A DNA stretch of 58,831 bases, filler included, from Sluysia triapertura (Eukaryota), in the NCBI GenBank assembly GCA_046118255.1. It is 4 parts of 4 records of this genome, joined end to end, with 100 filler letters (N's around TTAATTAATTAA, not from the genome) between each part and the next. Parts side by side here need not be neighbours in the genome. Positions count along the whole stretch, not along the records: positions 44,375 to 58,831 come from JBJNIA010258626.1; 3 more parts are not named here. The stretch is one strand, 5' to 3'. The position numbers and the translations under genes were made by a program. Positions 2,723-58,831 of the stretch are shown piece by piece; position 1 is the stretch's first letter; each line of letters opens with the position of its first letter. Under the pieces are notes generated by a model. That model was given only the letters and a program-made list of their open reading frames with translations. It ran no database searches and was not told where the DNA came from.

Positions 2723-4891
2723 CTAACTTTCTTTCAAATTACCAAGAGATGGTGCCATATAATACTGATTGGACATCATCATCGTACTAGGTCTTCTTTT
2801 AACACAAACAATTCCAATTATGAGAAATAATGCAATAACCAAGGTGATAACAACCATACTGACTACAATAATCAAATTGAGACCGGATAAAGTTCCACCA
2901 GATTCCAATACATTGATAACTAGTATAGTTCTATTACTACGAGGTGGTCGTCCCATATCTCTGACAATCAATAAAACTTGATGTGTTCCACGAGGTAAAG
3001 GAGATATTCGTGTTATCATTATACCAGTTGTTACATTCAAATAAAACAAATCCTCCTTACTTGGTTCCAAGAAATAACGAACTCTACCAGCATCACCTTC
3101 GTCTACATCAATTGCTTCCAGTTTAATTATTTCTTTTCCAGCACCATATGTTTCTGTAACATTTATGTTAGGTGTTAACAGTTGAGGTGTGATCCATTGT
3201 GGATTATTATCATTCTCGTCCGTTACAATCACATAGACTTTAGAACTAGTAGATAGTTCTGGACTCCCATGATCACGAACTGTTACCAGCAAAGTATAAT
3301 TTGGATTCCTTTCTCGATCAAGCTCATCCAAAGCATAAATATCTCCAGTTAGTTGTATTTTGAAAATGTGATTACCTACTCGACCTCCAGTACTGTTAAC
3401 TACTTCTTTTAAATGAAATGTTATGTATTTATTTTCTCTATTAACATCATTATCAGTAGCACGCAATTTTCCTTCGAGCTTCGTATCCAATTTAGAATTT
3501 TCTCGAATATAAAATGTTAAAGAATCCTCATGAAATATTGGTGGATTATCATTTACGTCGTTTATTGTTACATAAACTACAACCTCATTGCTCTTAATAG
3601 GTTCAAGAATGGAATCTGTAACAACAACAGTAAATTTGTTTCGATTAATTTGTTCTCGATCAAAACTTGAAATGCCCGTCCAAATAACGCCAGTTTTTTC
3701 GTCTATTTCATAAAAATGTGTTTTCGATATTTCTTTGATTTGATAACGAAGATGTGCATTGCCATCTTGATCTGTGGCCATAACTTGAATTAATCGTACA
3801 CCTGGTACTGTATTTTCATTCAAATCTATTCTATATACACTTTCAGAGAATTTCGGTTGATATTCATTTATATCTTGAATGTTTATTTCAATATCTACAC
3901 TGCTACGTTGTGGAGGTTGGCCATGATCTTGACAATTAAATGTGGCTGTAATCCTTTTCTGCTGCTCATAATCAAAACGCATCCGAGTTTGTAATTCATA
4001 AACACTTGAATCTCTTTCGTTCAAAGTTAATTCACGTGCACCACCTCGTAATAAACACTCAACTTGCTTGTTTTTATCTAAATCATCATCTGTTACACGA
4101 AAAGCTAATAATTTCTGTGGTGATTCGTTTTCATTTAACCTAATAATTAACTTACCAGCCATTTCTATCACATTATTCTTTTCGAATACCTGTATCGTTG
4201 GGGCATGATCATTAATATCCTTTACACGTATACTTACAGTAGCATAATTGTTCTGATCAACTTTTAATGAATTTACATCGGTAGCAGTCACACGAAAACT
4301 AAACTGTTGAATTGCTTTTGCAGTTAAACGTTTACGTAATTTTAAATCACCGGTTCTTTCATTTAAATCAAAAGTATGCATAATTAATCGATAATTATTT
4401 GTATGAGTACTAGAAATTTCATACTTAGTTATATTGTATGGTTCATCATCTTTATCAACTGCTTTCAATGATAAAATTACTTGATTAAGTGGAAAATCTT
4501 CATTTATTTCTTTTTCATAATGAGACTTTGTAAAAATAGGTAGATTGTCATTTTGATCTATTACTAAAATACGAATAGTTCGATTCGCTGTTTTTGATCC
4601 ACCATCATAAGCAGTCAAAATTCCCATGTACATTTTCTGTTTTTCATAGTCCAAATCTTTGTGCAAGATCAAATACAAACGGTTAATGTCTATTTTTGAT
4701 AACTGAAATGTATTTGTTCTTTCAGTAAATGTATAACTTGTAATTTGGTTCGGTACAGAAATATCGTCATCACGCGCACTTTCGATAGAAATCATAGTAG
4801 ACATTAAACTATTTTCTTTAATTTTCACTATTTCAACTGGAGTATCAAATTTTGGAGAACAGTAAGATATATCAGGATCAGATATATTGTA
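2723..4891 (-). CDS. Protocadherin (delta/lophotrochozoan-type) large ectodomain+TM exon; N-terminus defective as assembled
   Basis: Six cadherin repeats with Ca-binding motifs (LDYE, DQNDNLP, DINDHAP, FDYE, DINEYQP, FDRE, DVNDNPP, LDRE, DENDNNP), then TM LNLIIVVSMVVITLVIALFLIIGIVCV and KRR. The frame stays open upstream of the annotated GTG as far as a TAA at 4892-4894. The ORF end overlaps a likely splice donor (AA|GTTAGT, ~2727), so cytoplasmic exons probably lie further left; none were identified in the window. Confidence 0.9.
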   Translation of the reverse strand, partial: YNISDPDISYCSPKFDTPVEIVKIKENSLMSTMISIESARDDDISVPNQITSYTFTERTNTFQLSKIDINRLYLILHKDLDYEKQKMYMGILTAYDGGSKTANRTIRILVIDQNDNLPIFTKSHYEKEINEDFPLNQVILSLKAVDKDDEPYNITKYEISSTHTNNYRLIMHTFDLNERTGDLKLRKRLTAKAIQQFSFRVTATDVNSLKVDQNNYATVSIRVKDINDHAPTIQVFEKNNVIEMAGKLIIRLNENESPQKLLAFRVTDDDLDKNKQVECLLRGGARELTLNERDSSVYELQTRMRFDYEQQKRITATFNCQDHGQPPQRSSVDIEINIQDINEYQPKFSESVYRIDLNENTVPGVRLIQVMATDQDGNAHLRYQIKEISKTHFYEIDEKTGVIWTGISSFDREQINRNKFTVVVTDSILEPIKSNEVVVYVTINDVNDNPPIFHEDSLTFYIRENSKLDTKLEGKLRATDNDVNRENKYITFHLKEVVNSTGGRVGNHIFKIQLTGDIYALDELDRERNPNYTLLVTVRDHGSPELSTSSKVYVIVTDENDNNPQWITPQLLTPNINVTETYGAGKEIIKLEAIDVDEGDAGRVRYFLEPSKEDLFYLNVTTGIMITRISPLPRGTHQVLLIVRDMGRPPRSNRTILVINVLESGGTLSGLNLIIVVSMVVITLVIALFLIIGIVCVKRRPSTMMMSNQYYMAPSLGNLKES

Positions 4892-29099: not shown

Positions 29100-29227
29100 T
29101 TTTGAATTTCTTCTTTTGGATAAACATAACGTCATTTAATCAAATTCTATAGTTGTAAATTATTTTAAAACAAAGTATTTTAATGATATTTTACATAATT
29201 TTAGAGGGTCATCATGGCAACCTAGCA
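29100..29227 (-). mobile_element. 5'-terminal fragment of an LTR of the same family as 57419-58247
   Basis: Minus-strand TGCTAGGTTGCCATGATGACCCTCTAAAATTATGTAAAA versus TGTTAGGTTGCCACCACAACCCTCTAAAATTATGTAAAA at 58247. Confidence 0.7.
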
Positions 29228-36418: not shown

Positions 36419-37208
36419 TGGACTGACCCGGGATCAAACCCGGGACCTCTTGCTGCGCAGTTCGATGATTAAAAAACATGTATTAATATAATAGTTTTGG
36501 TCTCTTCTTTCTCTTTTTTAGAGAAGGAAGGTAATCTTCTTTCTTCTATTCAGGGACCTTGTAAGACATGGTCGCGGTATGCGTTATTCGAGGACTCCAC
36601 AGCTAGTCATACGCACTGTCGTACCAGGGTCTTGATTTCGGTCTTGTGGAAGTGCCTTGAGAAGCTTGTCATTCTCGGGATCCCATGAACCCAAGGCTCC
36701 AACGACGAATGTATCTAGAGACACCTTGCACTTCAGTTGTTCCTGTAGTTTGCTCTGTAGATCAGAATACTTCGAAAGATTGGTGGTTCGGGCTATTTCG
36801 AAATTTTTCTTCAGGTCCATGGGAGTTTTGACAGTTGCGATGAGGAAGTACCGCGGGCCTGTATGTCGTCGAGTGTCACTGATAATTGGTTTAGGCGAAT
36901 CCTTGATGACCAAGAATCCCTTTTGGGTCATTTTGTCCGCTAGGTAATTAAGGATTTTGTTGTGCCGGAGTGTTCTGGCTGTGCTTGTGTGAAGACATCG
37001 ACGGAGCACGTTTAGAAGGGATTCAGATTCGAGGCCACACCATCGACATGATACTGGCAGATGAAGACGTCAGTTCTGTGGACTGAAATTATGACTAATG
37101 ATGTTGTTCCGGGCCTTGATCATATACATCCATGCACTGAGCTATAATAAAAATTATTATTATTATAGTTAACCATACCAAATGGCACCTTAGGCCTATT
37201 TCGCAACA
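36419..37208 (-). repeat. tRNA-derived dispersed repeat, copy 2, split by a retrotransposon (parts 36419-36467 and 37135-37208)
   Basis: 3' half CATCGAACTGCGCAGCAAGAGGTCCCGGGTTTGATCCCGGGTCAGTCCA and 5' part TAGCTCAGTG plus the shared flank lie on either side of the insertion. Confidence 0.8.
36468..37134 (-). mobile_element. 5'-truncated non-LTR retrotransposon with restriction-like endonuclease (NeSL/R2/Utopia-like)
   Basis: WMYMIKARNN; degenerate CCHC CRWCGLESESLLNVLRRC; RHNKIL; ARTTNLSKYSDL; FVVGALGSWDPEND; terminal SSNNAYRDH; ~80-nt 3' UTR. Confidence 0.85.
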
Positions 37209-44641: not shown

Positions 44642-47059
44642 ATCTAGAAACGTGGAAATCAAAAAGAATCGAAACGAACGACAAGTAACTCTTAATTTTA
44701 TGCACAATCATGACCTTATAAATTTTGTTTACTTTTTAGGTGCAGAACATGGTCGTACGAAGATCGTATGCAGGATGCTGTTTTTAGCGTTTTACAATAG
44801 CAAAATTAATAACATCTTATGTAATTTTATAAAAATTAATAAATCATTGTCTATCTTTGAGTTGTTTCTAAAAAAATTGATCAACACCCAGTTCTTAAAA
44901 GAAATTATTATAAGTCAATTCAGTATTATATTATATAATTGTCATCAAACTTATCAAGTAAAATTAAAATTTAATTTAATATATTATAAATATACTAAAC
45001 TACAACACTAACTAGACAATCCCAACACGAACATATATAACTGGATTTAATTGTGAATCCATGGCAAAGATTAGAAATAACAATTTTGCTACTTTTATTT
45101 TGTATAATTTTGAAATGCACTGACCGATTTTGAAGACATAAACGATGTCGCATTAAATAAGGATATATTTGAATTTATATTCTCACAAAACGTTATTTTT
45201 AATTTTATTCTAAGTTTTGAAGTCTTAATTCAAAATGTTACATCTCAAAGTATGTCAACCATTTTGAAAGCTCTAAAACTTATTAGTCTTATCTTTATTT
45301 TATAGCTTAAAGTTTTTAATTTAAATTTTTTGATGTTAAACATGTTTTAATCTTTAAGATTTATGAAGGCCTTTATATCGATTTGAAATTAGAATATGTT
45401 GATAAATTGAGTAATACGATTATGTTAATCTTTAAATTTTATAAAATTAATAACGTTAATTCGAATTATATTAATAGTTTTAGAGAGATTGTGTGTTCTT
45501 TGATTTTTATGAGTTACAGGCAATACACCTATTATGTTGAATATTTGCTTTCCATTATTTTCCTTAAACCTTGTTATAAAGTTTTAAAATGCATGTCTCC
45601 TTGTGCAATGGTTTCAGACATCATTAACATATATGTATTAGAGAATGGTAGAATTATAGATCACCTACATGTGGATAATCAGAATGCTGTTGTATATATT
45701 CATAAAGAAATGGTATCAACAAACTTAAATATTATTCTGTGGCAAGGTATTCCTGTCTATTTGGGATCACAACCAGTTTAGAATGTCAAAGTAGTTTAAT
45801 TAATATTATTAATTATATCTATGTGTCAAGAGTGATTAAAAATTCAATTTCGTGGATATTAAATAAATCTATGCTGTATTATTATATTATAAATATTTTC
45901 TTTAACAATATATCTATTACGTGCCTTAAGCACCAATTTTGTAATCATAATCATTTAAAATTTTATACGAATTTTTACATTAGATTAAACAATAGAGTTA
46001 ATTGTAAAACAAATAACAGTAACCATTCATTAATAATCTCTAAAGATAAACAATATAAATTTAATATCAATACAAATATATCCACAATAACAATATTGAC
46101 TTTAAATAATTTTAAATCTTAGGAATTATATTAGGTGACTTATAATTGTGTAGTTTACATCGAATTCGTTAAAGGAATTCGAAAATAATATTTTACACTT
46201 AATCTATGAAAAAATTCAAAGAAAAAACAATTTAAATCATAAAACTTTATGAATTACACTGAGGTTTATTATATTACAATATCAATATACAAGGTTAAAG
46301 TAAAACTATAATAATATACAATAAAAATTTACGAGAATTAACTTAAGATAGTTAATTTAATCGATAGTTTAAAATCTGATTTTACGAATGGAAATATTAA
46401 AACGTTCCAAAAATTTGTTACAAAAAAATTCAAAAGTTTTGGTAGATTTTACGAAGGTACCTGACGGTACTAATCCTAAAATAATAAACTAACGATTCTT
46501 TGTCCAGACAAATTAAAGTCAACTCGAATCTTCAAATTAGTTGCTGAAAAATAATTGCGAAAAATGGTGTGTGTGTATGTTCTGATTGAAAATATATTGT
46601 TTAACGAGTTGACCTTGACTTTGGTCAAACAAAAATTAAGAAAAAAATTTTAATTAATTTAATTTGAAAGTAATACATTTAATATGAAAATATAATTAAT
46701 GAAAATAATTTTATTAATTAAAAATAAGCTAACATTTTTAATCAATATCAAAATTTTGTTATGAACTTGTCAGAATTGCGTGCAATAAAATTGTTTAAAA
46801 ATAATTATTAAATCATAATTGTGTTGCATATAAAATCATAAATCACAAAATCAATATCGGTCTGTTAAGTTACAAGTGTTAATTGTAACAAAAGTAATAT
46901 TTAATTATTTTAAAATTAATTCAAAAAAGGAACCTTCCACATATGAATTGTTTGAATAAATAAAAAATTATTAATATGACTCCAGATAACCATTATTCTA
47001 TAAATAAAGCTACAAAAATAGTAGTAAGACACAATTCAGACAATAGTCATAAACAACGC

Positions 47060-47552
47060 TATTTTAGAATCTTCATTAAAAAATTAGATAAAGAGAAATT
47101 ATATATTTGATTTTTCGCAAGTTGATCAAGAATAAAGAAATAAACAAAGATTGATTTCTTCACTCCAGTATATTACATAAGTTTGTGATACAAAGCTCCG
47201 GTTATTGAATCTAAGCGTTAAAGACATCATTTTGGTTGTACAATATTTACATTGCGAAAAATTTATTTATTCAAAATCATAGTGGTCACCAAGTTGTTCA
47301 CATTTAGCAACGAAATTATTTATTCAATCAATATCGATAGAACATTTTTAAGTTTAATTTAAGTAGCTTGTAAACTCATAAGAGTTATAAAATCAACGTA
47401 AACTTTCCAATTTTCAGTTGGTCCCTAAGATCAATTATAAAATCTCATTTAATTCTAAAATCATATTATTTTCGTTGGTCCATAATGCCAATTATAAAAT
47501 ATAAATTCACTTGACCGAGTCCTTGGGGTAGGCCATTTTACTTAAAATTCAA

Positions 47553-47608
<56 letters not shown>

Positions 47609-48046
47609 TATCTTATTATTTGATAAAAATGGTATTTGTATTTTTTATTTTTTAAATATTGCACCTTCTATAACTTTTGATGTTGTGATATAAAGTTAAC
47701 GTAAAGTTTGTAACATAAATCTGTAACGTAAATCTGTTTGTAACAGTATAAAACTAAAAGCTTAAATTTACATTGTTTACTGTATGAATTGAGATAATTT
47801 TATTTCGATTTTGGCCGTAGTGACTTAGACTTCTCTATAGTAACATTTGATAAATAATTGAATTTAAAAACATTAGAGAAATACGTCATTACACGGACAT
47901 TTTTTATATCGTTATTCCTTAGGCATATTTTCACGTTACTTACAGATACGCCAATGGTAAGCCGCATACTGTAAGCGGATTCTAAATATCAATTTATTTT
48001 GCTGTAAGGTAGTTTTTAAGTTTTAGATAAAAGAAAAACACCAGCA
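47060..48046 (+). mobile_element. Solo-LTR-like block, homologous to 6900-7952
   Basis: Colinear matches to 6900-7952; ends ...AAAAACACCAGCA like the LTR 3' end at 57419. Confidence 0.45.
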
Positions 48047-48119
48047 TTACTATAATATATGCACAGACCTAAACAATTAATTTATTTATAAAAGAAAAGA
48101 GGAAGAAAATTAAAAGAAG

Positions 48120-48541
48120 TATTTGCGTTTTAGAAAAGGGTTGGGTTTGTTATGGCGATGTTTGCGACACAGGCCATTCGCCTTAGAAAAACGTTTTAAT
48201 TCCTGCCTCCGCCTATGTCGTCTTTGGGACTTTGTGAGGCCGAGAGGTTTGAAATAGGCGGATTAGCAAGATGTGGATCATACGTGGAAGTTGAAGGGAA
48301 GGGAGACAATTCCTATCAGAAGATTGATGAAGTAAGTGTTATAGTTAAAGAAGATGAAATATGAACGATGTCAAAGATATACTGATGTTTATATCAATTT
48401 TTATAGTAAAATTTATAGTAAGGGCAAGATGGATAGTCTGTAGGAGCATTGTCATAAAGAAAGAAGATGGGTGCAAGGCATCGCACGAGTTTGGTACTTA
48501 CGTAAAGGTCTAAGGCATATTGAGCAGCGATAAAATCCCAT
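48120..48541 (-). pseudogene. Accessory ORF remnant: N-terminal RING finger, S/P-rich linker, Arg-rich tail
   Basis: MGFYRCSICLRPLRKYQTRAMPCTH...(frameshift)PSCPY; later KSQRRHRRRQELKRF. The ATG is preceded by a strong acceptor TTTCATTTTGTTTCAG. Confidence 0.55.
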
Positions 48542-48879
48542 AACTGAAACAAAATGAAAGAGTTGTAACAATGAATTTCATAATTAGAATTAAATGGAAT
48601 TAAATGAAATGAGTTAAATTTTAATTGAAATTTAACAAAATCCTAAAATTATTAATGAATTTATCAGATAATGCTACGACAAGATATTGTATATTTTCGA
48701 ATAATTAAGACGAGGTGAATAGTGATTTCACTGCCACCGGCCGGTTATTTAAACGAAAAATATACTGTCCTTAAACTACTAGAATATTTTTACTCTTTCG
48801 TGTTCAAAAGAGATGGAATCTAATAGCTTCAACCGTAAGGTTGGCTGCAAGCAGAGTGAAAATTATAAAGATCATTTCA

Positions 48880-49800
48880 TGGATAGAGTAATATAAGGAA
48901 TAAAAATTAGGATTTTGTATAATGGTATTGTTAACACTAAATTTAAAATTAATTGGATCGATTGATTTATTATTCCTATTAATGATATTTGACTTATACC
49001 TGACTTTAAATTTGTCCGCCTTAATTAATGATTTAGTGATTATAGGTACCGAAAAGTCGTATAATCCAAAGTTTGACGGAGGCTTTAATATAACATAAAT
49101 TTCACTACTACGTAAAATCTAAATTTTAATTATTGGTAATAGTGAGGTTGATACGTAACGTAAAAGAATAGTCGAGTTTGTAGAACGATTGACATCAATC
49201 TCATAATAAGTATAATAATGGATTTTTTAGTTTTACCAAGTCATTGTTCGTTTTAGTAGCCAATATTTTTAATTTATCATGAAATTTGAACGTATGCGAG
49301 TTTTGTATTATTTATTGCTATAGTTATAGTGACTGTGACATTAAATAATTGATTTTCAGATAGGTTACCACAAAAGGTGATCCAACGATTATAAATCTTA
49401 TTTATGGAAGTTGTTAATTTACACCACCTATCTAAACAACATTCTAACTTGTTCGCTAACTTAATCTCAGTGTATATTTCTTTGCGTCCAGCGGTAATGT
49501 TGACTTGCGATTATTCATTGTAGAGAAATGTGTCAAAGTACACACGGCAGAAATGCATACTACATAAGCTAATAATGTGGATCGCAGGTGGGTCATTTGA
49601 ATTCCATAATGGCAAAGCGGTGTAGTTGTGCACTGGTGATGAAAATTATTGTAATTCTAATGGTGTTTGTGAGCTAAAACGATAAAGAATGGAGTACTGA
49701 TCATTATCTATATTAGAATGAAGATTGGTAGAGTTATCCTTATTTCGAGTAATTGTATATGCGACCACTAAAATAATGATAATAATATTACTACTTATGT
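48880..49800 (-). pseudogene. Accessory ORF remnant, predicted secreted or membrane protein
   Basis: Long frame with sparse stops, hydrophobic N-terminus IIIIILVVAYTI, several Cys, and sequons NST, NYT, NIT, NLS, NVT, NRS. Confidence 0.4.
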
Positions 49801-50070
49801 TTACTCATTTGAATGAAAAGTGTAACTGCTTTGTATATTTTCCGTTTAAATGAATTTGTACTATTATATGTTTATCTTCACTTGGTAAAAAGTCTGAACA
49901 AATTGTAGAGGAATGTATTTTTTAAAGGAAAATTTTACTGGCAAAATTTTTAGTTCCAATTTTGTTTACGATGTCCATGCAATACAAGTAATTTTTATTG
50001 TTAAGTTTAACGTTTTCAGCATAAGAGGAGAAGACTAAAATCTTACTCAAAATATTAATTAGTTTTTGGA

Positions 50071-50407
50071 GCTAGATCTTAAAAAGACTAGCGAAATATA
50101 ATTTTAAACTTAAAAATTCGTCGAAACACTTTAATCGTATTTATATTATAAATGAACAACTTTTGTTAATTAAGTTTATAACTATTGTAATTATTAAGTT
50201 TAGTTAAAAGTTGATTTTTAATAAGGTAACTTTGTTTTTCAACACTAGACCTTAAAAAAGCTTGTGAAATTTCTAAATTCATATATTGTTTTTATACTAG
50301 ACCTTAAAAAGGCTAGTGAGATTTCTAAAATAATACTGTTTTTATACTAAACCCTAAAAAGGCTAGTGATATTTATTTTTCTGAACTGTACCTTAAAAAG
50401 GCTAGTG
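50071..50407 (-). repeat. Array of five stem-loops (~40-52 bp period for four of them)
   Basis: CACTAG-CC-TTTTTAA-GG-T-CTAGT(A/G) and variants at 50071, 50243, 50295, 50345 and 50384. Confidence 0.85.
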
Positions 50408-50659
50408 AAACGTAATAAAAATATAATTTAATTTAAAGTGACGACATAAAATTTTAATCTCTAAGGAGCTAACGCACACAATTTAAGTTTAGCTTAGGTT
50501 AAATTTGACTATTTTAAATCCTAATAAAACGTCTCCAGAATTGGTATAAAGCGTGAATATTAGGCGAATCCGACCTTCAGATATTTTGCAAGTATAAGTT
50601 TTTAAGTCTATTTTTTGATAAAATTCGTGCATTAGGTTGTGGAAATTTAACTACCTTAA

Positions 50660-51040
50660 CCATATTCTACTTGTTCCTCTGCCCATACGCATTTAGTAGG
50701 TTTAGTTTTTAATCCATCAATTTGTAATCAACTTGTAATTTTTTATGTCGGCAACATGTGCGTCAAAATTCTTTGAAAATATTACAAACGATTACATTCT
50801 TACAACCCGAAAGGACGAAATTCATACAGCACCGAAATGTTGCAGGTGCTCCTGTTAGACCGAAGGGAATTTTTTTGCATTCGTATAATTGATCTCAACA
50901 AGGGAATGCAGTTTTGTGATTATCTTTTTTAGCTATTTCTATCTGCCATTAACAACTCTGTAAATCTAATGTAGTAAAGAATGCTGCGTTTCCTAATTTA
51001 TCTAACATCTCGTCAATTCTTGGTAAGGGAAAACATCTCT
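50660..51040 (-). pseudogene. Ty3/gypsy reverse transcriptase fragment
   Basis: DVFPLPRIDEMLDKLGNAAFFTTLDLQSC*WQI...KTAF...IPFGLTGAPATFR, YxDD deleted, then GLKTKPTKCVWAEEQVEY. Confidence 0.92.
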
Positions 51041-51299
51041 TCTACTAATTTCGCTTAATTCTCTTACTTAATTATCTTACCTTCACAAATGTTACAAATA
51101 GAATCCGCTATTCCTATATCTAATTTTTTCTGATTACCTTCGGATGTGATAAACATTATTGAACCTGTTAACAAACTATTGGTTCTTCCTGGATTAATAT
51201 ATTCTGCCCTACTTAATAACCAAAACGGTTCATCTACAATAATATCGTTATCATCTATTGTACGATTCGTATAGCTACCCATTAATTTCGCCTTATCAA

Positions 51300-51530
51300 A
51301 ATCTAAGGTAATTCCTTTAAGATGTGATAACACGTCCATACCTAAAATCATATCTTCGAGACAGTATCTCATAACACTTAATCTAACTTCAAATTTATTT
51401 TTTCCTAATTCGCAAAAGGCTTTCATTACTTCTACTATTTTTATCGCATCTCCTCGCTTGTTAAGAAAGATTTGTTCCTGTGTCAGTTAATGCTGCAATA
51501 ACTCGACCATTAATTCTAATTTTAACCATC
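51300..51530 (-). pseudogene. Retroviral-type aspartic protease
   Basis: VKIRINGRVIAALTDTGTNLS (DTG at 51476-51484) and DMILGMDVL. Confidence 0.9.
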
Positions 51531-51739
51531 GCACCATAATAATTTACATTCTTTGTTGGTGAAGTTGGAAGAATTGGATATAAAAAATTTTTTATTGTTT
51601 TTAGGTTTTTCTTTATTTTCTTTATATCTTCTGTGTTTCCTTTCTTAATTTCGTTATTTCGATTCGAATCTATGTTTTGTAATAATATGTTTTCATTAAT
51701 GTTTGTACGTTCCTTTTTTAATGCGTTTATTTGAGAATT

Positions 51740-53300
51740 TGCGTGGTGATGAAGTAAATATTTAGATAAGAAATGAAAACATCCTATAATATAAATTCCT
51801 ATTAAACCAGAAAAGCAAAAGAAACTATCTCACATTTGTTTTAGTGTATTTTAAGCAGCTTTCTTAAAATGATCAGGCCCTAATAATAGTTCAAAATTAA
51901 CTTGACCGTCTTTTCTACAATAGCTTTATCTGTTAAAACCTTAGATTGCTTAATTGGGAATAAAATTGCATGTCATTAGTATAAATACCAGAATTAGGGA
52001 TCTTTTTAGTTGCTAAGAATTTTAATTTACCTCTTAATTCGGTTAAACCTATTACTTCTGGCATCTTAACCTGACTTCTATGCGGTAATGAAATCCATAA
52101 ATTATCATCTATCCTGTACTCGGGTGCCATGACATTTGAGCACTACGTGGTTTTTATTTTAATTTTATCATTTAGTAATAATACTCGTGTTACCGGTTCT
52201 AAATAGGTTTGTAATTTTCCATAAATCCGATTCTTGTATTTAAACTTCGACTTTCTTATATTTTTCTTATATTTATAAGTATATAATACTTCACCCATTA
52301 GTCTACAAAATACGCCTTCTTCTAAAGGTAAAAGTGGTGCCACTAGATTAGGATTAGTAATCGCGATTGCTAACATAGTTCATAAAATTTCCTTATTTAG
52401 TTGACAATCTCTTGTTATCATTGCATAAACTTTTTCTAGCGACATTAGTCCTAAAAAATAGTAAAAGTCAATCTTATTGTTAAATTATGTGTTTAATTTT
52501 AAATTCTTAGGGTCACCTCCCTTTTTTGCTTGTGGAATTATATGTTCAGACAAATAAATACTTTGATAGTTAGTCTCAGTTACTTCTTTACCACATCTAA
52601 TGATTGAATTTTTTGACATAAATATTAAACCGTCTTCTTCCTTATTTGCCATAAGAATTGTAGGAGTTTCTACCTCTTTCAATTTTTTTCTTTCTAAATT
52701 TTCCTTATGTATTTGTTTCTTACTTAATTCCTCAATGAGTAATTCATGATCATTTTGAAATACGAATTCTGATACAAGATTAAACTTAATTTGTTTTAGA
52801 AATATCAAAGGACACTGAAACCTATTTAATTCGCAAAGTAATATTGATTCTATTTTACAAAAACGTACCTGATATATTCTACAGACCCCTTTCACATGTT
52901 CCATCTAATAATACATTTCCTGCTGTCCTTACATTATAAATAATCTTTGCATTATCTTTTATTTCCAACTTATCCCCTTTATTTAAATTTATATAAACGG
53001 TTTCGAATGTATCCATAAAGTTATTGGGTGATATTTGAAAAGGTTTTAGAACGTTTGAATATCAATAATCGATGAGTGACTTTGATGTCCACAATACCAT
53101 ATTACGACTGATCATTTAAACGAATATTAAATTACACATTCAGTATCTTACTATCCTTAAATATTACTCTATTGGGTCATGACTCCGGCCAATCCTCTCT
53201 CTGGAGCAATGAAAATTTTTTTATCTATTTAAGGTCTACTACAATTCCATTTGTCTTATTTATGCCGAACATAGCAAGCAAAATAATTACGAATAACATA
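51740..53300 (-). pseudogene. Envelope glycoprotein of chuvirus-G / herpesvirus gB-like (class III) type
   Basis: Signal-like MLFVIILLAMFGINKTNG; FSLL; WYCGHQSHSSII; AGNVLLDGTCE; CGKEVTETNYQSIYL; GVFCRLMGEVLYTYK; YLEPVTRVL; CSNVMAPEYRIDDNLW; SGIYT; TM SGLIGIYII; FLSKYLLH. Order and spacing match recalled chuvirus-like glycoprotein motifs. Confidence 0.8.
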
Positions 53301-54049
53301 TTATTAGTAGAATTACCTAATCTAGGCAGTATATATTATTCAATAGATTATTATTTTCTAATATATTTGTGGACCAATTGAGAGTTTCATTAGAGTTTAA
53401 TTTGTCGCTTTCTTTAATTATATTTTTCTAATCACCTTTGTTTTCAATCCATAACTTAAGTTTTTTGTCTATAAAATTTAATATTTGATATATCTTCTCC
53501 TTAGTAAGAAGTTTCTCTTTATCACATTGGAACAATGTGTAAGTAATGATGATTTTGAGCTTTTCTCTATTTAATCCAGTATTAATTTGTTTACCTATTA
53601 TCAACTTATATTGCCCCGTGTCTGTATAATCACTTATATCCTTATCTCTATATTTTTCTTCTAATTATTGCGTTAATTGAGTAATTGCACTTCTTGTCAA
53701 ATACTTCTTGATAATACTTGTGAAAATTATCAAACTTATCCGACAATAGTGCATAAATTAAACTTGTTGTATCTATTTCAATTTTATCGCTAAATCTATA
53801 GTATTCCTATTAACATAATTAGGAGTTATAAATTGATCACTGCATTCCTCTTTTCTGGGTCTGCCTGGTCTTCTCTTGAGAGTATTTGTTTCCTTATTTA
53901 ATGTCTCTATATGTGGATTGTCATTTAAATCTATTATCTGGTTGTTCATTATCTGTATCAGTATTAATATCCACATTAATTTGTATCCATTTGTATTCAT
54001 TTGTATTCACATTAACTTTATTAGGAGTAGAACAATTAAATGGTATATC

Positions 54050-54280
54050 ATAAACAATAGTAGCTTTTAATATATCATCATGAATTCCAAGAGGTTAACC
54101 ATAATCATTTAAAAAATAATCGGGCACCAGATTTCTATCATTAAAATATAAGTTGACAACCGTAGTATTAGAGTCATTCATTTTAATTAAATCTATAATT
54201 TCTTTGAATCTCGTAGTGATAGGCAATTCCATTACTACATTTATTAAATCATTAATTAATATTTTAATATTCAATAAGGT
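54050..54280 (-). pseudogene. Ubiquitin-like domain within the polyprotein
   Basis: LNIKILIND..VVMELPITTRFKEIIDLIK...NLYFNDRNLVPDYFLNDYG*PLGIHDDILKATIV parallels ubiquitin [29 protein letters not shown]. Confidence 0.5.
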
Positions 54281-55124
54281 TGTTGGTGTTTCATTTCGTT
54301 CCATGTGTGCAATTTTCTTTAATATTTTTCTTGCTTTAACTTTATGATAATTTTCTTCTCTACTTAACGCAACTAAAATAGACTTAATTTTATGGCCATC
54401 TGGAAGACTTAAGTCGGACTTATATAAATTTTCAAAATTAATTCGATGTCTTCCTTATTTAAACATGAAAGAAATGCATTAACTTCGTTATTGCAGATAA
54501 TTCTAACGTGTTTGCTTTATTCTCCTCATTGACAGAGGTTCATTTTCGCTTTCTAGAATAACTTCATTGCTTGTATTCGAATTACTAATTTCACTTTTAT
54601 TTGAACCTTCATATTCACTTATACTTGATTGTTGAATTTGTTTCGAGATATTCGAGATATCCAATGTTAAACTCGAATTGTCACTATTGTCATCTATGAT
54701 TTTTATTATTTACTTCGCTTGCGTTTTTCTCCTTCTCTAACTCCTTATCTTTCAACTCTTGTTTTCTTTTTAATATTTAAGATAATGCTCGTACATATAA
54801 TTTATAAATGCATCCTCTTCTTTTTGTCTATTATATCTATCTTCATTTTCATCATCATCGTCACCGTCTAATTTTATTCTAGAAAACTCTTTAATAAATC
54901 CATCTTTATGTCTCCTATAGTTTCTTCTTCTGAATCATAATCTTCGTGCGTTTCTTCATCATAATTATTGTAACTATTTCGCATTTTATTATATTATAAT
55001 TTATTTGTTCCTTACTCTTATTCTTAACGTCATTAAACCTTACTTTTCTATCTGAGTTTGTCTCTCTCGAATAATCTTGCATTTTAGTAATATTTTGATT
55101 AAAAGTTTCAGCTCTTAATTTCTT

Positions 55125-56068
55125 ACAATTTCTAGCGTAATGACCTTGCTTATCACAGTTATTACATATTACATTCTCTTCTGTTTGTTTGAGTCTTATG
55201 GTTATTAGCAGGACTTCTTTTTCTATTCACCAGCCGAACTTGGCCAACGCGATGCAGGTCTTTGTTCGTAACCTTGAGGTTTTGTTATTACTTTTAAAAC
55301 CGAAATTATTATTAATTCTAAAAGCCTGAGAGATATTTTCTCAAAAATTATTTCTAACTCCTCATCGTACCTTAGTGCATTATTTGTTCTGAAATTATTT
55401 CCTCTACTAAAATTATTACTTCTGTAATTAGAATTATTTCCTCCAAAATTAGGATTAGTAGTATTATAACTATTTATTCTACAGTCCAAATTATTATCAT
55501 ATCCAGCATTAAAATTAGAGTTCTTACGTTCTTAAAATTTCTTTTTTTATAATTATCTTGAGATTTCTCGATGCCCCTTAACATATGCTCTTAATTCTGA
55601 GCGTAGACCACTTTTTAACTTATCAATTAAAAGATTCTCCTTTTATCATCAACTTTAGCTCTAAAGACTTTAATGCGCATGCAAGTTCATAAACTGTTTC
55701 CTTACATTTCCTTACATAAACTGTTTTCTTCGTACATTGAGCATCTTAATGTAATATTTACCTATATCGCCGAGATCTATTTCTTCAGTGAAGGCATTTA
55801 CAAACTCTTGCCAATTTTGCTTATAAATTTTATCAATTTCCTTATAAATCTGGATTGCAACTCCAGTTAAGTAGTTTTGTATACGCTTAATCTTTTCAAT
55901 TTCTATCCAGCCATTTGCCTCTGTAATACTATCATACTCAAAAAGAAAATCACAGAGTTCTTCCTCTGCGCCATAAAATTTTCTTAAATCGGGGAATGCC
56001 ATTGTAAGCCTAATATCCCTAGCAAATTGAGACATATAGTCTCTAAATTCTTCTATTGGTAAAGACAT
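55125..56068 (-). pseudogene. Gag (capsid plus CCHC zinc knuckle)
   Basis: KFYGAEEELCDFLFEYD...ANGW...YLTGVA...WQEFVNAF capsid signature; KSGLRSELR; CNNCDKQGHYARNC at 55125-55166. Confidence 0.9.
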
Positions 56069-57395
56069 CTTATTTGTTTGTTTAGAGTGATTTCTTCTAG
56101 GCTTTTTCTTATTCTTAGTAAATTCAATTAAACTTCGTGTATCAATTCTGAAGACTTAAAAAGTTAATATTCAAATATCAATATTTAATAACTTGAATAA
56201 TAGTTCAATAGGTACAAATGTAAATCGGAATCAAATATTTTAAACTTAAATCAAGAAAACTTAATAAAATTCAATTAAACTTGACAATTACAAATCCAAA
56301 TCTTATAAATCTCAAGAAAATATCAAAAACCTTATCAATTACTTATCAAACAATGTAAAGACAATTCAAAATAATACCATAACTCAATAAAATCGTAATT
56401 ATAAACTTAACTTTAGTCAAAATTAGGGGTAAAACTTACTTAAAACTTATGTAAAATTCAAATAATCAAATGAAACTTAACAAATTCTATGAAAACTTAA
56501 TGAAATTATAAAATAACTTAAAATAACTGTTAAACTTATACAACTTAATGTCATACTTAAGTAAAACGTACAAAACTTATGAAATTAAGGCATATACTTA
56601 AGAAACGTATAAATTCTTACTTAAACTTATACAAAAACTTATAAAAATCAGCTCTAAATCATCACATACTTAAGGGGTAATCATAATAATAAAAACTTAA
56701 TAAAAACTTAAATACTTAATAAATACTTAATAAAAACTTAACTTAATTATCAAAATATTCGATAAAACGTAGACTTATAATTTAAAAATTCAAAATATAA
56801 CACCTAAAATTTTAAAATTCACAATTAAAAAGCTTAAATTTAATGGTAACTTGACTTAATCGCAAAATATACAATATAACTTACACTTATAGCTTAAAAA
56901 TGCAAAATTACACACTTAAACTTAATTTTAACTTATTATATATCTAAATAATTCAAACTTAGAACCTTAAATTCTTATCAAAACAACTTTAAAAACAACT
57001 TATACGAGATTAAACTTAAAACTCAAATAATAACGTATTATAACTTATATCGTCGAAAATCAAACTTAATTTTACTCTTAAAAGTGTTCAAACTTAAAAA
57101 TTATCAAGAGTTCAATGCTTAATTTTAATTTCAACTCGTTTAAAAACCTTATAATCAATGAAACACAAACTTATAAACTTAAATTCTATGAATTACTAGT
57201 CAGAATTACTTAAAAGCAACGGATAAATACAAAAACTTGTCAAAATTCAAATTTTAATATCGAATTATAAAGTAAATCATCAAAACTTAAAAATTCAATG
57301 TTCTGTAAATACAATCAAACTTAAAAAATTCAATGCAAAAATGATAAAAACGTCGTTAAAACTCAAAAATTTAACGTATGTCTTAACTTATGTAA

Positions 57396-57413
57396 GTCCC
57401 AATTCGGGCGCCA
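57396..57413 (-). promoter_or_regulatory. Primer-binding site, tRNA-Lys(UUU)-like
   Basis: TGGCGCCCGAATTGGGAC matches the canonical tRNA-Lys3 PBS TGGCGCCCGAACAGGGAC at 16/18 and lies 5 nt inside the LTR terminal CA. Confidence 0.85.
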
Positions 57414-57418
57414 AATTT

Positions 57419-58247
57419 TGCTGTGGTTTTAACTCTTAACCTGCAGCAAAATAAAATTGAGCAGGGTCCAGTTACACTAAAAGTCTTATGTCGTAAAGAT
57501 GTAACTAAAACAAGTTAATTCCAATGCTAAAAACTTAATCTATTAATTAAATTAGAAAGTCTCTTTAATTACTTTAATTATCAACTTATCCAACTAATAT
57601 AATTAAAATAAGTAAACTAATTTAGCTATTTAACAGAAAAGAAAAGAGTTATGAAACCAAGTTATAAAAATATTTTTAAATTTATAATCAAAACCCTATG
57701 GATCTTTGATTTTATTTTTATAAATGATGTGAATTAAAAAACGTTTTGATAGTGCCTTAAATTGAATTTACCTGGATTTTACATTTCGATTCTTTAATTT
57801 GAAACTTCCTTATAAAAATAAAGCTTACCAAATACTAATTAAAAATAGCTATAATAAATTCCGGGGATTGTTCGTCACAAGTAAACAGATCGAATCCAAC
57901 GAATAAACCGCGTCAATGAGTATTGTAAATCAATAGTGTTAAAAGACTAAATAAATTTCCATTGCGTTAATATGGCGTTAGCAAAAATTAACAATATCTT
58001 GACGAATTATAATGAGAATAACTTGTGATGAAACTTGAACTGATGCTAGTTTATATACTAGTCATCAGCCAATAGAAATCGGTGGAACATTTTAGAAGCG
58101 TCTATTCTATTTTTAGAAGCTTATTTTCTTTTTTGGAAAATAATAGTTTGCTAGTTATTTGGAAGCTTTTAAATATGTTTTTAAATGGTTTTAAAATTTT
58201 TTAATGATTTTTACATAATTTTAGAGGGTTGTGGTGGCAACCTAACA
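57419..58247 (-). mobile_element. 5' LTR (~830 bp, TG...CA)
   Basis: Starts TGTTAG (boundary supported by the second copy ending at 29227) and ends CAGCA before the PBS. Contains ATTGG (CCAAT) and TATATAAA at ~58050-58073. Confidence 0.75.
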
Positions 58248-58728
58248 TACCCAATGATTTTAATTATCAATTGCATTTTCGTTACGCAATAGAAATTACT
58301 AAAAATTAGACAATAACTTAAATGTATTTTATAAAATTTTATTCAAATAAAAATTCTTAAAATAAATAAGTAACAAGTATGTTAAATTTCCTTGTACTGA
58401 TAATGAGAATTCAAATTTTAAAGTTCGTTTGTTATCGTTTAAAAAAATGAACAGAGAAATCAAATGTAATATCTTTCCCGTTGATAAATTTTTTAAAACC
58501 CAAAAAACTTTAAAATACAGCTCTTTAGAATCACCTTAATCAATTTACAAAAACTTTCAAATTAATAGTAAAAGTAAAGCGTTTTTAGACGTGTGAGAAT
58601 AAGGTCATTTGACCTTTAAACATAAGAATAATTATTGTGATGAATTAGTAATTAATAACATTAGACACAAAACTTATAAATAACTATGATAAATAATAAT
58701 ACTTTTATTTCAAATAAAAACATAAGTA

Positions 58729-58831
58729 CACCTATCCCCCGATTTACACGGTACTCGTTTTACACGTTTTCGTTTTACACGGTTTTCCAAATAAGTTTTT
58801 TTTACGTTTTTCTCAGGAACGTATCTACCGT
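58729..58831. mobile_element. pogo/mariner-type MITE truncated by the window end
   Basis: TA|CACCTATCCCCCGATTTACACGG followed by repeated (T)TTTACACG subterminal motifs. Confidence 0.55.

What the first reader, a model, noticed from the sequence alone, without database searches (positions are those of the whole stretch)
51300..56068. Envelope glycoprotein embedded inside the Gag-Pol polyprotein (gag-env-pro-RT order)
Seen: order on minus is Gag/CCHC, extra domains, internal signal peptide (~53300), glycoprotein ectodomain, TM, protease, RT. A stop-free 122-codon frame (51829-51464, absent from the ORF track) runs DSFFCFSGLIGIYIIGCFHFLSKYLLHHH...LYPILPTSP...VKIRINGRVIAALTDTGTNLS, joining the Env TM/tail directly to the protease active site. 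Known: retroviruses and errantiviruses place env after pol, usually as a separate spliced ORF. Inference: one membrane-threaded polyprotein (cytosolic Gag, luminal Env, cytosolic Pol) cut by signal peptidase and the element protease, a flavivirus-like layout in a retroelement, possibly an undescribed infectious lineage. Gag-to-Env continuity cannot be proven in this decayed copy. The giant planarian Burro elements are the obvious comparators.
Basis: partly seen in the sequence, partly recalled or inferred. Interest (0 to 1): 0.92.

Follow-up and report, generated by a model that had tools for sequence, protein, structure and literature searches.

The report
Decayed Burro-like enveloped retrotransposon copy
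This is a broken copy of a retrovirus-like jumping element, likely from a flatworm, whose viral fusion-protein gene sits between its capsid and enzyme genes, an odd layout that is real but was already described for the planarian Burro elements.

Summary
On the minus strand lie, in order, Gag capsid, CCHC knuckle, SUMO-like and Bcl-2-like segments, an internal signal, a Monjiviricetes-type fusion ectodomain (Pfam PF24664, E 1.9e-17), a membrane segment, protease and RT. RNase H and integrase are missing, and the copy has many stops and frameshifts. Natural database proteins carry this order in one chain: P0012 and P0034 run CCHC-Env-PR-RT-RH-IN. A nested insertion or misassembly is therefore unlikely. 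A model of a 38%-identical relative matches herpes gB (Z 10.4) and, ahead of the signal, Bcl-xL (Z 9.5). The novelty fails. PMC6431247 (2019) reports in-frame env between gag and pol in planarian Burro elements, with the same SUMO-like/BCL2/env/PR order. PMC13524379 lists GAG-ENV-POL gB-type elements in flatworms, nematodes and bryozoans. This scan also noted such elements on other DNA (e1-8072000). Still untested: the membrane threading, and the idea that the Env signal also anchors the Bcl-2-like domain. Verdict: new member of a known kind.

The parts
57396..57413 (-). Primer-binding-site-like motif beginning TGGCGCCC; resemblance to a tRNA-Lys site is recalled, not tested
   Evidence: Seen. 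High summed contig depth over 57128-57555. No paired LTR in the window (self-blast).
56069..57395 (-). About 1.3 kb T-rich non-coding leader
   Evidence: T 46-50% and many stops in all three frames
55580..56068 (-). Gag capsid domain (broken), ATG at 56068
   Evidence: Profile of 4 relatives E 5.4e-16; tblastn P0043 E 9.5e-7. The P0043 capsid hits dArc2 in PDB at E 0.007.
55122..55528 (-). Asn/Arg-rich stretch and one CCHC zinc knuckle
   Evidence: PF00098 E 1.1e-4, above the curated cut-off; the N/R-rich stretch is also in P0006
54098..54394 (-). Helical plus SUMO/ubiquitin-like module
   Evidence: Profile of P0007/P0012/P0022/P0043, E 2.3e-7, the only hit in six frames; 0 of 1000 shuffles reach it; PF11976 weak, E 0.11
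53851..53877 (-). AT-hook-like basic motif
   Evidence: Seen directly; similar motifs by eye in P0007, P0011, P0013, P0043; function not tested
53422..53736 (-). Bcl-2-like domain remnant (BH1/BH2 side)
   Evidence: Profile of 4 relatives: only hit, E 0.094 in six frames; 2 of 1000 shuffles reach 12.2 bits. Relative P0014 residues 3-71 fold like Bcl-xL, Z 9.5, rmsd 2.9, 69 aligned.
53246..53299 (-). Internal signal-like hydrophobic segment opening Env
   Evidence: Hydropathy 1.85. All 14 relatives printed have a hydrophobic segment before the conserved Env start; profile hit from 53299.
51830..53245 (-). gB-type (class III), Monjiviricetes-like fusion ectodomain, broken over several frames
   Evidence: PF24664 E 1.9e-17; 34-37% identity over about 300 residues to the closest single-chain relatives; relative folds like herpes gB, Z 10.4
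51464..51829 (-). Stop-free frame: shortened membrane segment (about 51823-51767), cytosolic tail, protease N-half with D-T-G
   Evidence: collinear with P0007 1409-1602 and P0012 906-1103; RVP weak, E 0.15
51073..51453 (-). Protease C-half and the linker before RT (where Burro has a dUTPase-like motif)
   Evidence: Profile E 4.2e-9; tblastn P0109 E 4.5e-9; dUTPase identity not shown (no Pfam hit)
50662..51041 (-). Ty3/gypsy-type reverse transcriptase, broken; no RNase H or integrase follows
   Evidence: RVT_1 E 6.1e-11; 55-60% identity to RT of P0011, P0012, P0017, P0106, P0109; RH-IN absent

Best explanation
This is a dead, 3'-incomplete copy of a multi-copy Burro-like Ty3/gypsy retrotransposon, likely from a planarian, whose active form likely made one polyprotein with a predicted herpes-gB-type fusion protein between Gag and protease. 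Shown: the gene order, the family of each domain, and single-chain relatives. Inferred mechanism (about 0.7): the internal hydrophobic segment sends the ectodomain into the ER lumen and is cut by signal peptidase. The Env membrane segment returns the chain to the cytosol. Gag (held by the signal) and Pol (held by the Env tail) then sit on the cytosolic face of one membrane. The element protease would free capsid, RT and integrase there, perhaps once Env trimers bring protease monomers together, and particles would bud with gB-like spikes. This copy can do none of this.
For: Of 16 natural proteins of 900 aa or more held, 13 carry Env and protease in one chain, 7 carry CCHC and Env, 7 carry Env and RT, and 2 (P0012, P0034) carry CCHC-Env-PR-RT-RH-IN. 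Of the 11 hits below 1e-30, 9 carry a non-Env domain in the same chain and 2 are Env-only fragments. The window matches these relatives collinearly from capsid to RT. Related contigs in run X1 cover every 428-base bin from 50280 to 56699 at summed depth 3,400-28,000, against about 300 at 46000-47283. A contig with no differences spans 53100-53297 across the signal/ectodomain boundary. AlphaFold model of relative P0014 (mean pLDDT 80.5): herpes gB fills the top 20 rows, best Z 10.4, rmsd 7.5, 387 aligned; Bcl-xL Z 9.5. The same order is in print for Burro.
Against: No continuous ORF can be read in this copy. The 900-aa cut favours fused proteins. Nine of the 16 long proteins have no CCHC, and several begin shortly before the signal (P0011, P0013, P0106), so Gag may be a separate frame in some lineages. 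P0019 and P0111 (one cluster) and P0007 end after their proteases without RT. Relatives have a second hydrophobic stretch behind the membrane helix, so the number of membrane crossings is not settled. The fold was of a relative, not the window's protein. The VIA search was a second look at Foldseek's list, and the gB rmsd is high. X1 may be the source sample of the window, so it is not independent. The host was not identified.
Confidence: 0.88

Rival explanations
1. Same element, but Gag and Env-Pol are separate frames joined by a programmed frameshift or read-through, or Env-Pol is made from a spliced RNA, which would lower Env and Pol levels relative to Gag.
For: Nine of 16 long proteins lack a CCHC, and P0011, P0013 and P0106 begin 130-190 residues before the signal. 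The window has breaks between the knuckle and the SUMO-like module. PMC13524379 allowed gaps between ORFs and does not use the words polyprotein, fused or in-frame.
Against: P0007, P0012 and P0043 carry CCHC, the SUMO-like module, the signal and Env in one chain, and this module is shared with the window. Burro ORF1 is one protein of 4,873-5,140 aa.
Confidence: 0.15
2. The env is a separate insertion (a chuvirus-like viral relic or a nested element) in an ordinary gypsy copy, or an assembly artefact.
For: Stand-alone glycoproteins of about 650 aa with the same Pfam family exist (P0033, P0037). The stretch 53100-53225 is covered only at single-copy depth.
Against: Those stand-alone proteins are distant (E 1.9e-12 or weaker), whereas the nearest hits are polyproteins. 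The TM-to-protease spacing is 107 residues in this shortened copy against 118-378 in the 9 relatives where both motifs were found. A contig without differences bridges the signal junction.
Confidence: 0.03
3. The gB-like protein is made but does not make the element infectious: it acts inside the cell or in cell-to-cell contact, and the element moves like an ordinary LTR retrotransposon.
For: No particle or infection data were found in the papers read. BURRO1 transcripts are described only as derepressed in tissues (PMC8532177 passages).
Against: The gB fold is kept over about 400 residues at 10-13% identity to herpes gB, and 15 of 20 near-invariant alignment columns survive even in this dead copy. 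That points to a working fusogen in the active form.
Confidence: 0.3

Closest known systems
Burro / GYPSM1 gypsy-like LTR elements of planarians (PMC6431247, section 7 read in full; Grohme 2018 and Jurka 2007 seen only as cited there)
   Same: Gag with CCHC, then SUMO-like (PF11976), BCL2-like, env related to mononegavirus fusion proteins, protease, RT. Env lies in frame between gag and pol. The review also notes decaying fragments with stops and frameshifts in Dugesia japonica.
   Different: More compact here: about 5 kb from Gag start to RT, against an ORF1 of 4,873-5,140 aa. One recognisable knuckle instead of two or three. No MATH, BIR or ankyrin hit. LTRs not delimited; RNase H and integrase lost.
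GAG-ENV-POL errantiviruses with HSV/gB-type ENV, Platyhelminthes C1a group (Smed_errantivirus_1-6; PMC13524379)
   Same: Same ORF order and Env class. By eye, 21 of 40 residues are identical between window Env and Smed_errantivirus_2 at the end of the printed domain I-II alignment. The size fits elements 1-4.
   Different: This copy is not intact. It is not shown to be any one of the six listed elements. The passages read do not describe the extra domains or call the product one polyprotein.
Non-canonical nematode endogenous retroviruses (Sacco 2022; not held, seen only as cited in PMC13524379)
   Same: ENV before POL, glycoprotein captured from an RNA virus
   Different: GAG-ENV-POL elements are not one clade according to PMC13524379; relation not tested here
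Flavivirus and hepacivirus polyproteins (recalled; PMC5402940 seen as a search listing only)
   Same: Works like them in the inferred sense: a cytosolic capsid ends in the signal of the next glycoprotein, and the enzymes follow the membrane anchor
   Different: No homology; an analogy only

Membership tests
Ty3/gypsy (Metaviridae) LTR retrotransposon | Gag capsid and CCHC, then retropepsin and RT | tested here: met
   the relative's capsid hits dArc2
Ty3/gypsy (Metaviridae) LTR retrotransposon | Pol order PR-RT-RH-IN | tested here: inconclusive
   RH and IN are lost from this copy; the order is met in relatives with 55-60% RT identity
Ty3/gypsy (Metaviridae) LTR retrotransposon | Paired LTRs with primer-binding site | tested here: inconclusive
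   PBS-like motif at 57413-57396; no second LTR in the window; no genome held
Ty3/gypsy (Metaviridae) LTR retrotransposon | RT phylogeny inside Ty3/gypsy | not tested
GAG-ENV-POL errantivirus, HSV/gB type | ENV lies between GAG and POL | tested here: met
GAG-ENV-POL errantivirus, HSV/gB type | Ectodomain with herpes gB fold between a signal and a membrane segment | tested here: met
   Relative P0014 (38% identical to the window Env): gB Z 10.4, rmsd 7.5, 387 aligned. PDB profile search: 29 of 34 rows are gB, all weak, best E 0.043.
GAG-ENV-POL errantivirus, HSV/gB type | Cysteine-bridge configuration C1a | not tested
   Defined in figures that are not held; the N-terminal ectodomain is damaged in this copy
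Burro / GYPSM1 | SUMO-like then BCL2-like motif directly before env | tested here: met
   the Bcl-2 signal in the window itself is weak (2 of 1000 shuffles)
Burro / GYPSM1 | One in-frame Gag-Env-Pol ORF | tested here: inconclusive
   Not readable in this copy; met in P0012 and P0034
Burro / GYPSM1 | Giant size (ORF1 near 5,000 aa, over 30 kb with LTRs) with MATH, BIR, ankyrin cargo | tested here: inconclusive
   The copy is truncated. The part present looks more compact and gave no such Pfam hit, so it is filed as Burro-like, not as Burro.
Burro / GYPSM1 | Planarian host | tested here: inconclusive
   GC 20-30% and a cadherin-repeat ORF fit an AT-rich animal genome. The organism is coded. Unchecked notes on the same genome call it planarian.
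BEL/Pao elements with gB-like env | BEL/Pao-type Gag and Pol, env after pol | tested here: not met
   Env precedes the protease. That the relatives' RT_RNaseH and Integrase_H2C2 set is gypsy-like is recalled knowledge.

The most novel reading that the evidence does not exclude
The Env signal does two jobs. It sits a short way behind the BH2 end of the Bcl-2-like domain (48-78 residues from BH2 end to the Env start in 4 of 4 relatives measured), about where cellular Bcl-2 proteins have their tail anchor. One signal-peptidase cut would therefore yield both a luminal gB-type fusogen and a membrane-anchored viral Bcl-2 that also tethers Gag. With a second signal-FN3-like-TM module after integrase in relatives, these elements would be infectious planarian retroviruses whose single polyprotein threads the membrane twice and blocks host cell death.
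Probability: 0.3. Interest if true: 0.6.

Novelty: new member of a known kind. Interest (0 to 1): 0.24.

Why it matters
As a discovery it matters little: the layout has been in print since 2019 and this copy is dead. It adds a compact, high-copy family and a direct fold match showing that the Env is gB-type, with a Bcl-xL-like fold just ahead of its signal in a relative. The open question it points to is how a retroelement with Gag, Env and Pol in one chain assembles particles, and whether planarians carry infectious retroelements. Intact natural copies, not this one, are the place to ask.

Tried and rejected
No whole genome is held, so copy number and LTR pairing could not be computed. Self-blast of 47001-58831 found no paired LTR. 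phmmer of the window Env against PDB gave 0 hits. Atlas search of P0005 1-160 gave only scores of 0.83 or less, not used. I tested whether 49981-48807 is the second membrane module seen after integrase in relatives: not supported (311, 163 and 181 of 1000 shuffles score as high for P0008, 174 of 1000 for P0009; pairwise null). The third homologue search returned only its query. No RNA holder was listed for this stretch. The bacterial promoter scan at the PBS was uninformative. Foldseek-only searches of the PDB and viral libraries never ran because the machine was busy. Sacco 2022 and Grohme 2018 are not held. Look-up of earlier findings by sequence was blank. P0040 (11 repeated stretches) was counted as a miss among the 16 long proteins.
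Full report
Observation. The window is AT-rich (GC 20-30%) and holds a cadherin-repeat ORF, so it is animal DNA. No whole genome is held. The 122-codon frame 51829-51464 is as quoted. Three-frame reading of the minus strand shows a PBS-like motif at 57413, a 1.3 kb leader, a Gag ATG at 56068 and then coding-like sequence broken by many stops and frameshifts down to about 50500. Pfam finds RT (E 6.1e-11) and a CCHC knuckle. The stretch 52904-51936, one frame with three stops read as X, matches PF24664 Monjiviricetes_fusion at E 1.9e-17.

Relatives. The window Env stretch found 98 proteins at E 0.001 or better among 1.84 billion representatives, 11 of them below 1e-30. Pfam and motif scans cover the 16 natural proteins of 900 aa or more. 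Thirteen carry Env and protease in one chain, 7 carry CCHC and Env (two of these are one cluster), 7 carry Env and RT, and P0012 and P0034 carry CCHC-Env-PR-RT-RH-IN. The length cut favours fusions. Among the 11 nearest hits, 9 have a non-Env domain in the same chain and 2 are Env-only fragments. tblastn maps these proteins onto the window in order, from capsid through Env, membrane segment and protease to RT. Against a universal single ORF: 9 of the 16 lack a knuckle, and P0007, P0019 and P0111 end after their proteases.

Extra domains. Profiles built from four relatives each hit the window once, in the expected place. A helical plus SUMO-like module lies at 54394-54098 (E 2.3e-7; 0 of 1000 shuffles) and a Bcl-2-like segment at 53736-53422 (E 0.094 in six frames; 2 of 1000 shuffles). 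In relative P0014 the segment before the signal hits PF00452 (E 0.00096, below the curated cut-off) and Bcl-xL by sequence (best E 0.0099; all 60 rows shown of 85 are Bcl-xL or Bcl-2).

Fold. P0014 was modelled on a 48-row alignment (mean pLDDT 80.5, pTM 0.58). A VIA second look at 985 Foldseek-ranked chains put herpes gB in the top 20 rows (best Z 10.4, rmsd 7.5, 387 aligned) and Bcl-xL on residues 3-71 (Z 9.5, rmsd 2.9). A profile search of PDB sequences also returned gB in 29 of 34 rows, all weak and largely the same few proteins. The fold is of a relative, not of the window's broken protein.

Insertion or artefact? In the one run listed (X1), 13,123 contig pieces lay on 46000-58831, most at 85-95% identity. 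Summed depth was 3,400-28,000 in every bin from 50280 to 56699, against about 300 in the left flank. Depth is no copy number, but Gag, extra domains, Env and RT are all repetitive together. A contig without differences spans 53100-53297. X1 may be the source of the assembly. The copy is damaged: its membrane region is about 30 residues short, and RNase H and integrase are not in the window.

Mechanism. Shown: order, domain families, single-chain relatives, and a hydrophobic segment before the Env start in all 14 relatives printed. Inferred: signal-peptidase cleavage, one net crossing back to the cytosol after the ectodomain, Gag and Pol both tethered to the cytosolic face, protease release, budding with gB-like spikes. 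A second hydrophobic stretch behind the membrane helix in relatives leaves the count of crossings open, but a luminal protease and RT could not be packaged. The distance from the BH2-like motif to the Env start is 48-78 residues in 4 of 4 relatives measured. That suggests the signal also serves as the tail anchor of the Bcl-2-like domain; this is untested.

Known work. [quoted passage not shown] PMC13524379 (abstract, passages, section 5 part 1 of 2, sections 6 and 14 in full, rows of supplementary files 2, 3, 5 and 6) reports GAG-ENV-POL elements with gB-type ENV in Platyhelminthes, Nematoda and Bryozoa, and lists six from Schmidtea mediterranea. PMC8532177 was seen as passages. Sacco 2022 and Grohme 2018 could not be read. 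The explicit topology and the Bcl-2 anchor idea were not found in two searches (7 papers listed, 0 papers) or in the passages read. The unread papers, Repbase reports and figures may contain them. Earlier notes of this scan reached the same verdict on another genome.

Side finding. P0011, P0012, P0025, P0106 and P0109 end in a second signal-ectodomain-membrane module after integrase. In four of them a short motif is mutually recognisable (0 of 300 shuffles each in leave-one-out, but the segments were picked on that motif). The Atlas ranks fn3 families at 0.91 for the P0012 module, with low recognition, so it is a lead only. It was not detected in the window.

Verdict. A real, decayed member of a described kind: Burro-like, GAG-ENV-POL, gB-type Env. 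Interest 0.24.

Noticed in passing
P0011, P0012, P0025, P0106, P0109 (C-terminal 350-500 aa): After integrase the same chain has a second signal, an ectodomain with an FN3-like motif in four of the five, and a membrane segment. Earlier notes of this scan describe it on other DNA.
   Followed up: partly
P0005, P0007, P0011, P0013, P0019, P0106, P0109: Two to six retropepsin-like repeats in one chain, some placed after integrase; the window shows only one
   Followed up: no
window 48807-49981 (-): Decayed coding-like stretch with a hydrophobic segment near each end, repetitive in X1 (summed depth about 1,000); no Pfam match and no match to the relatives' second module
   Followed up: partly
window 50058-50413: About 50-base tandem repeat (2.6 copies by TRF, more degenerate units by the repeat finder) where the element's homology ends
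   Followed up: no
window 57984-58831: Very high summed depth in X1 (up to 72,600) upstream of the PBS-like motif; may be LTR or a separate repeat; 58179-58247 recurs at 29153-29227 (80%)
   Followed up: no
window 2723-4891 (-): 722-codon open frame with six cadherin repeats and a hydrophobic end: a protocadherin-like host exon
   Followed up: partly
window 36584-37069 (-): 161-codon frame that by eye resembles the end of a non-LTR retrotransposon ORF (zinc knuckle and restriction-like endonuclease, recalled); no significant Pfam hit
   Followed up: no
window 22507-23700 (-): 397-codon frame with 12-residue acidic repeats; no Pfam match
   Followed up: no
P0012: NCBI names this full Gag-Env-Pol protein a hypothetical protein of a Flavobacteriaceae MAG; probably animal DNA binned into a bacterial genome
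   Followed up: no
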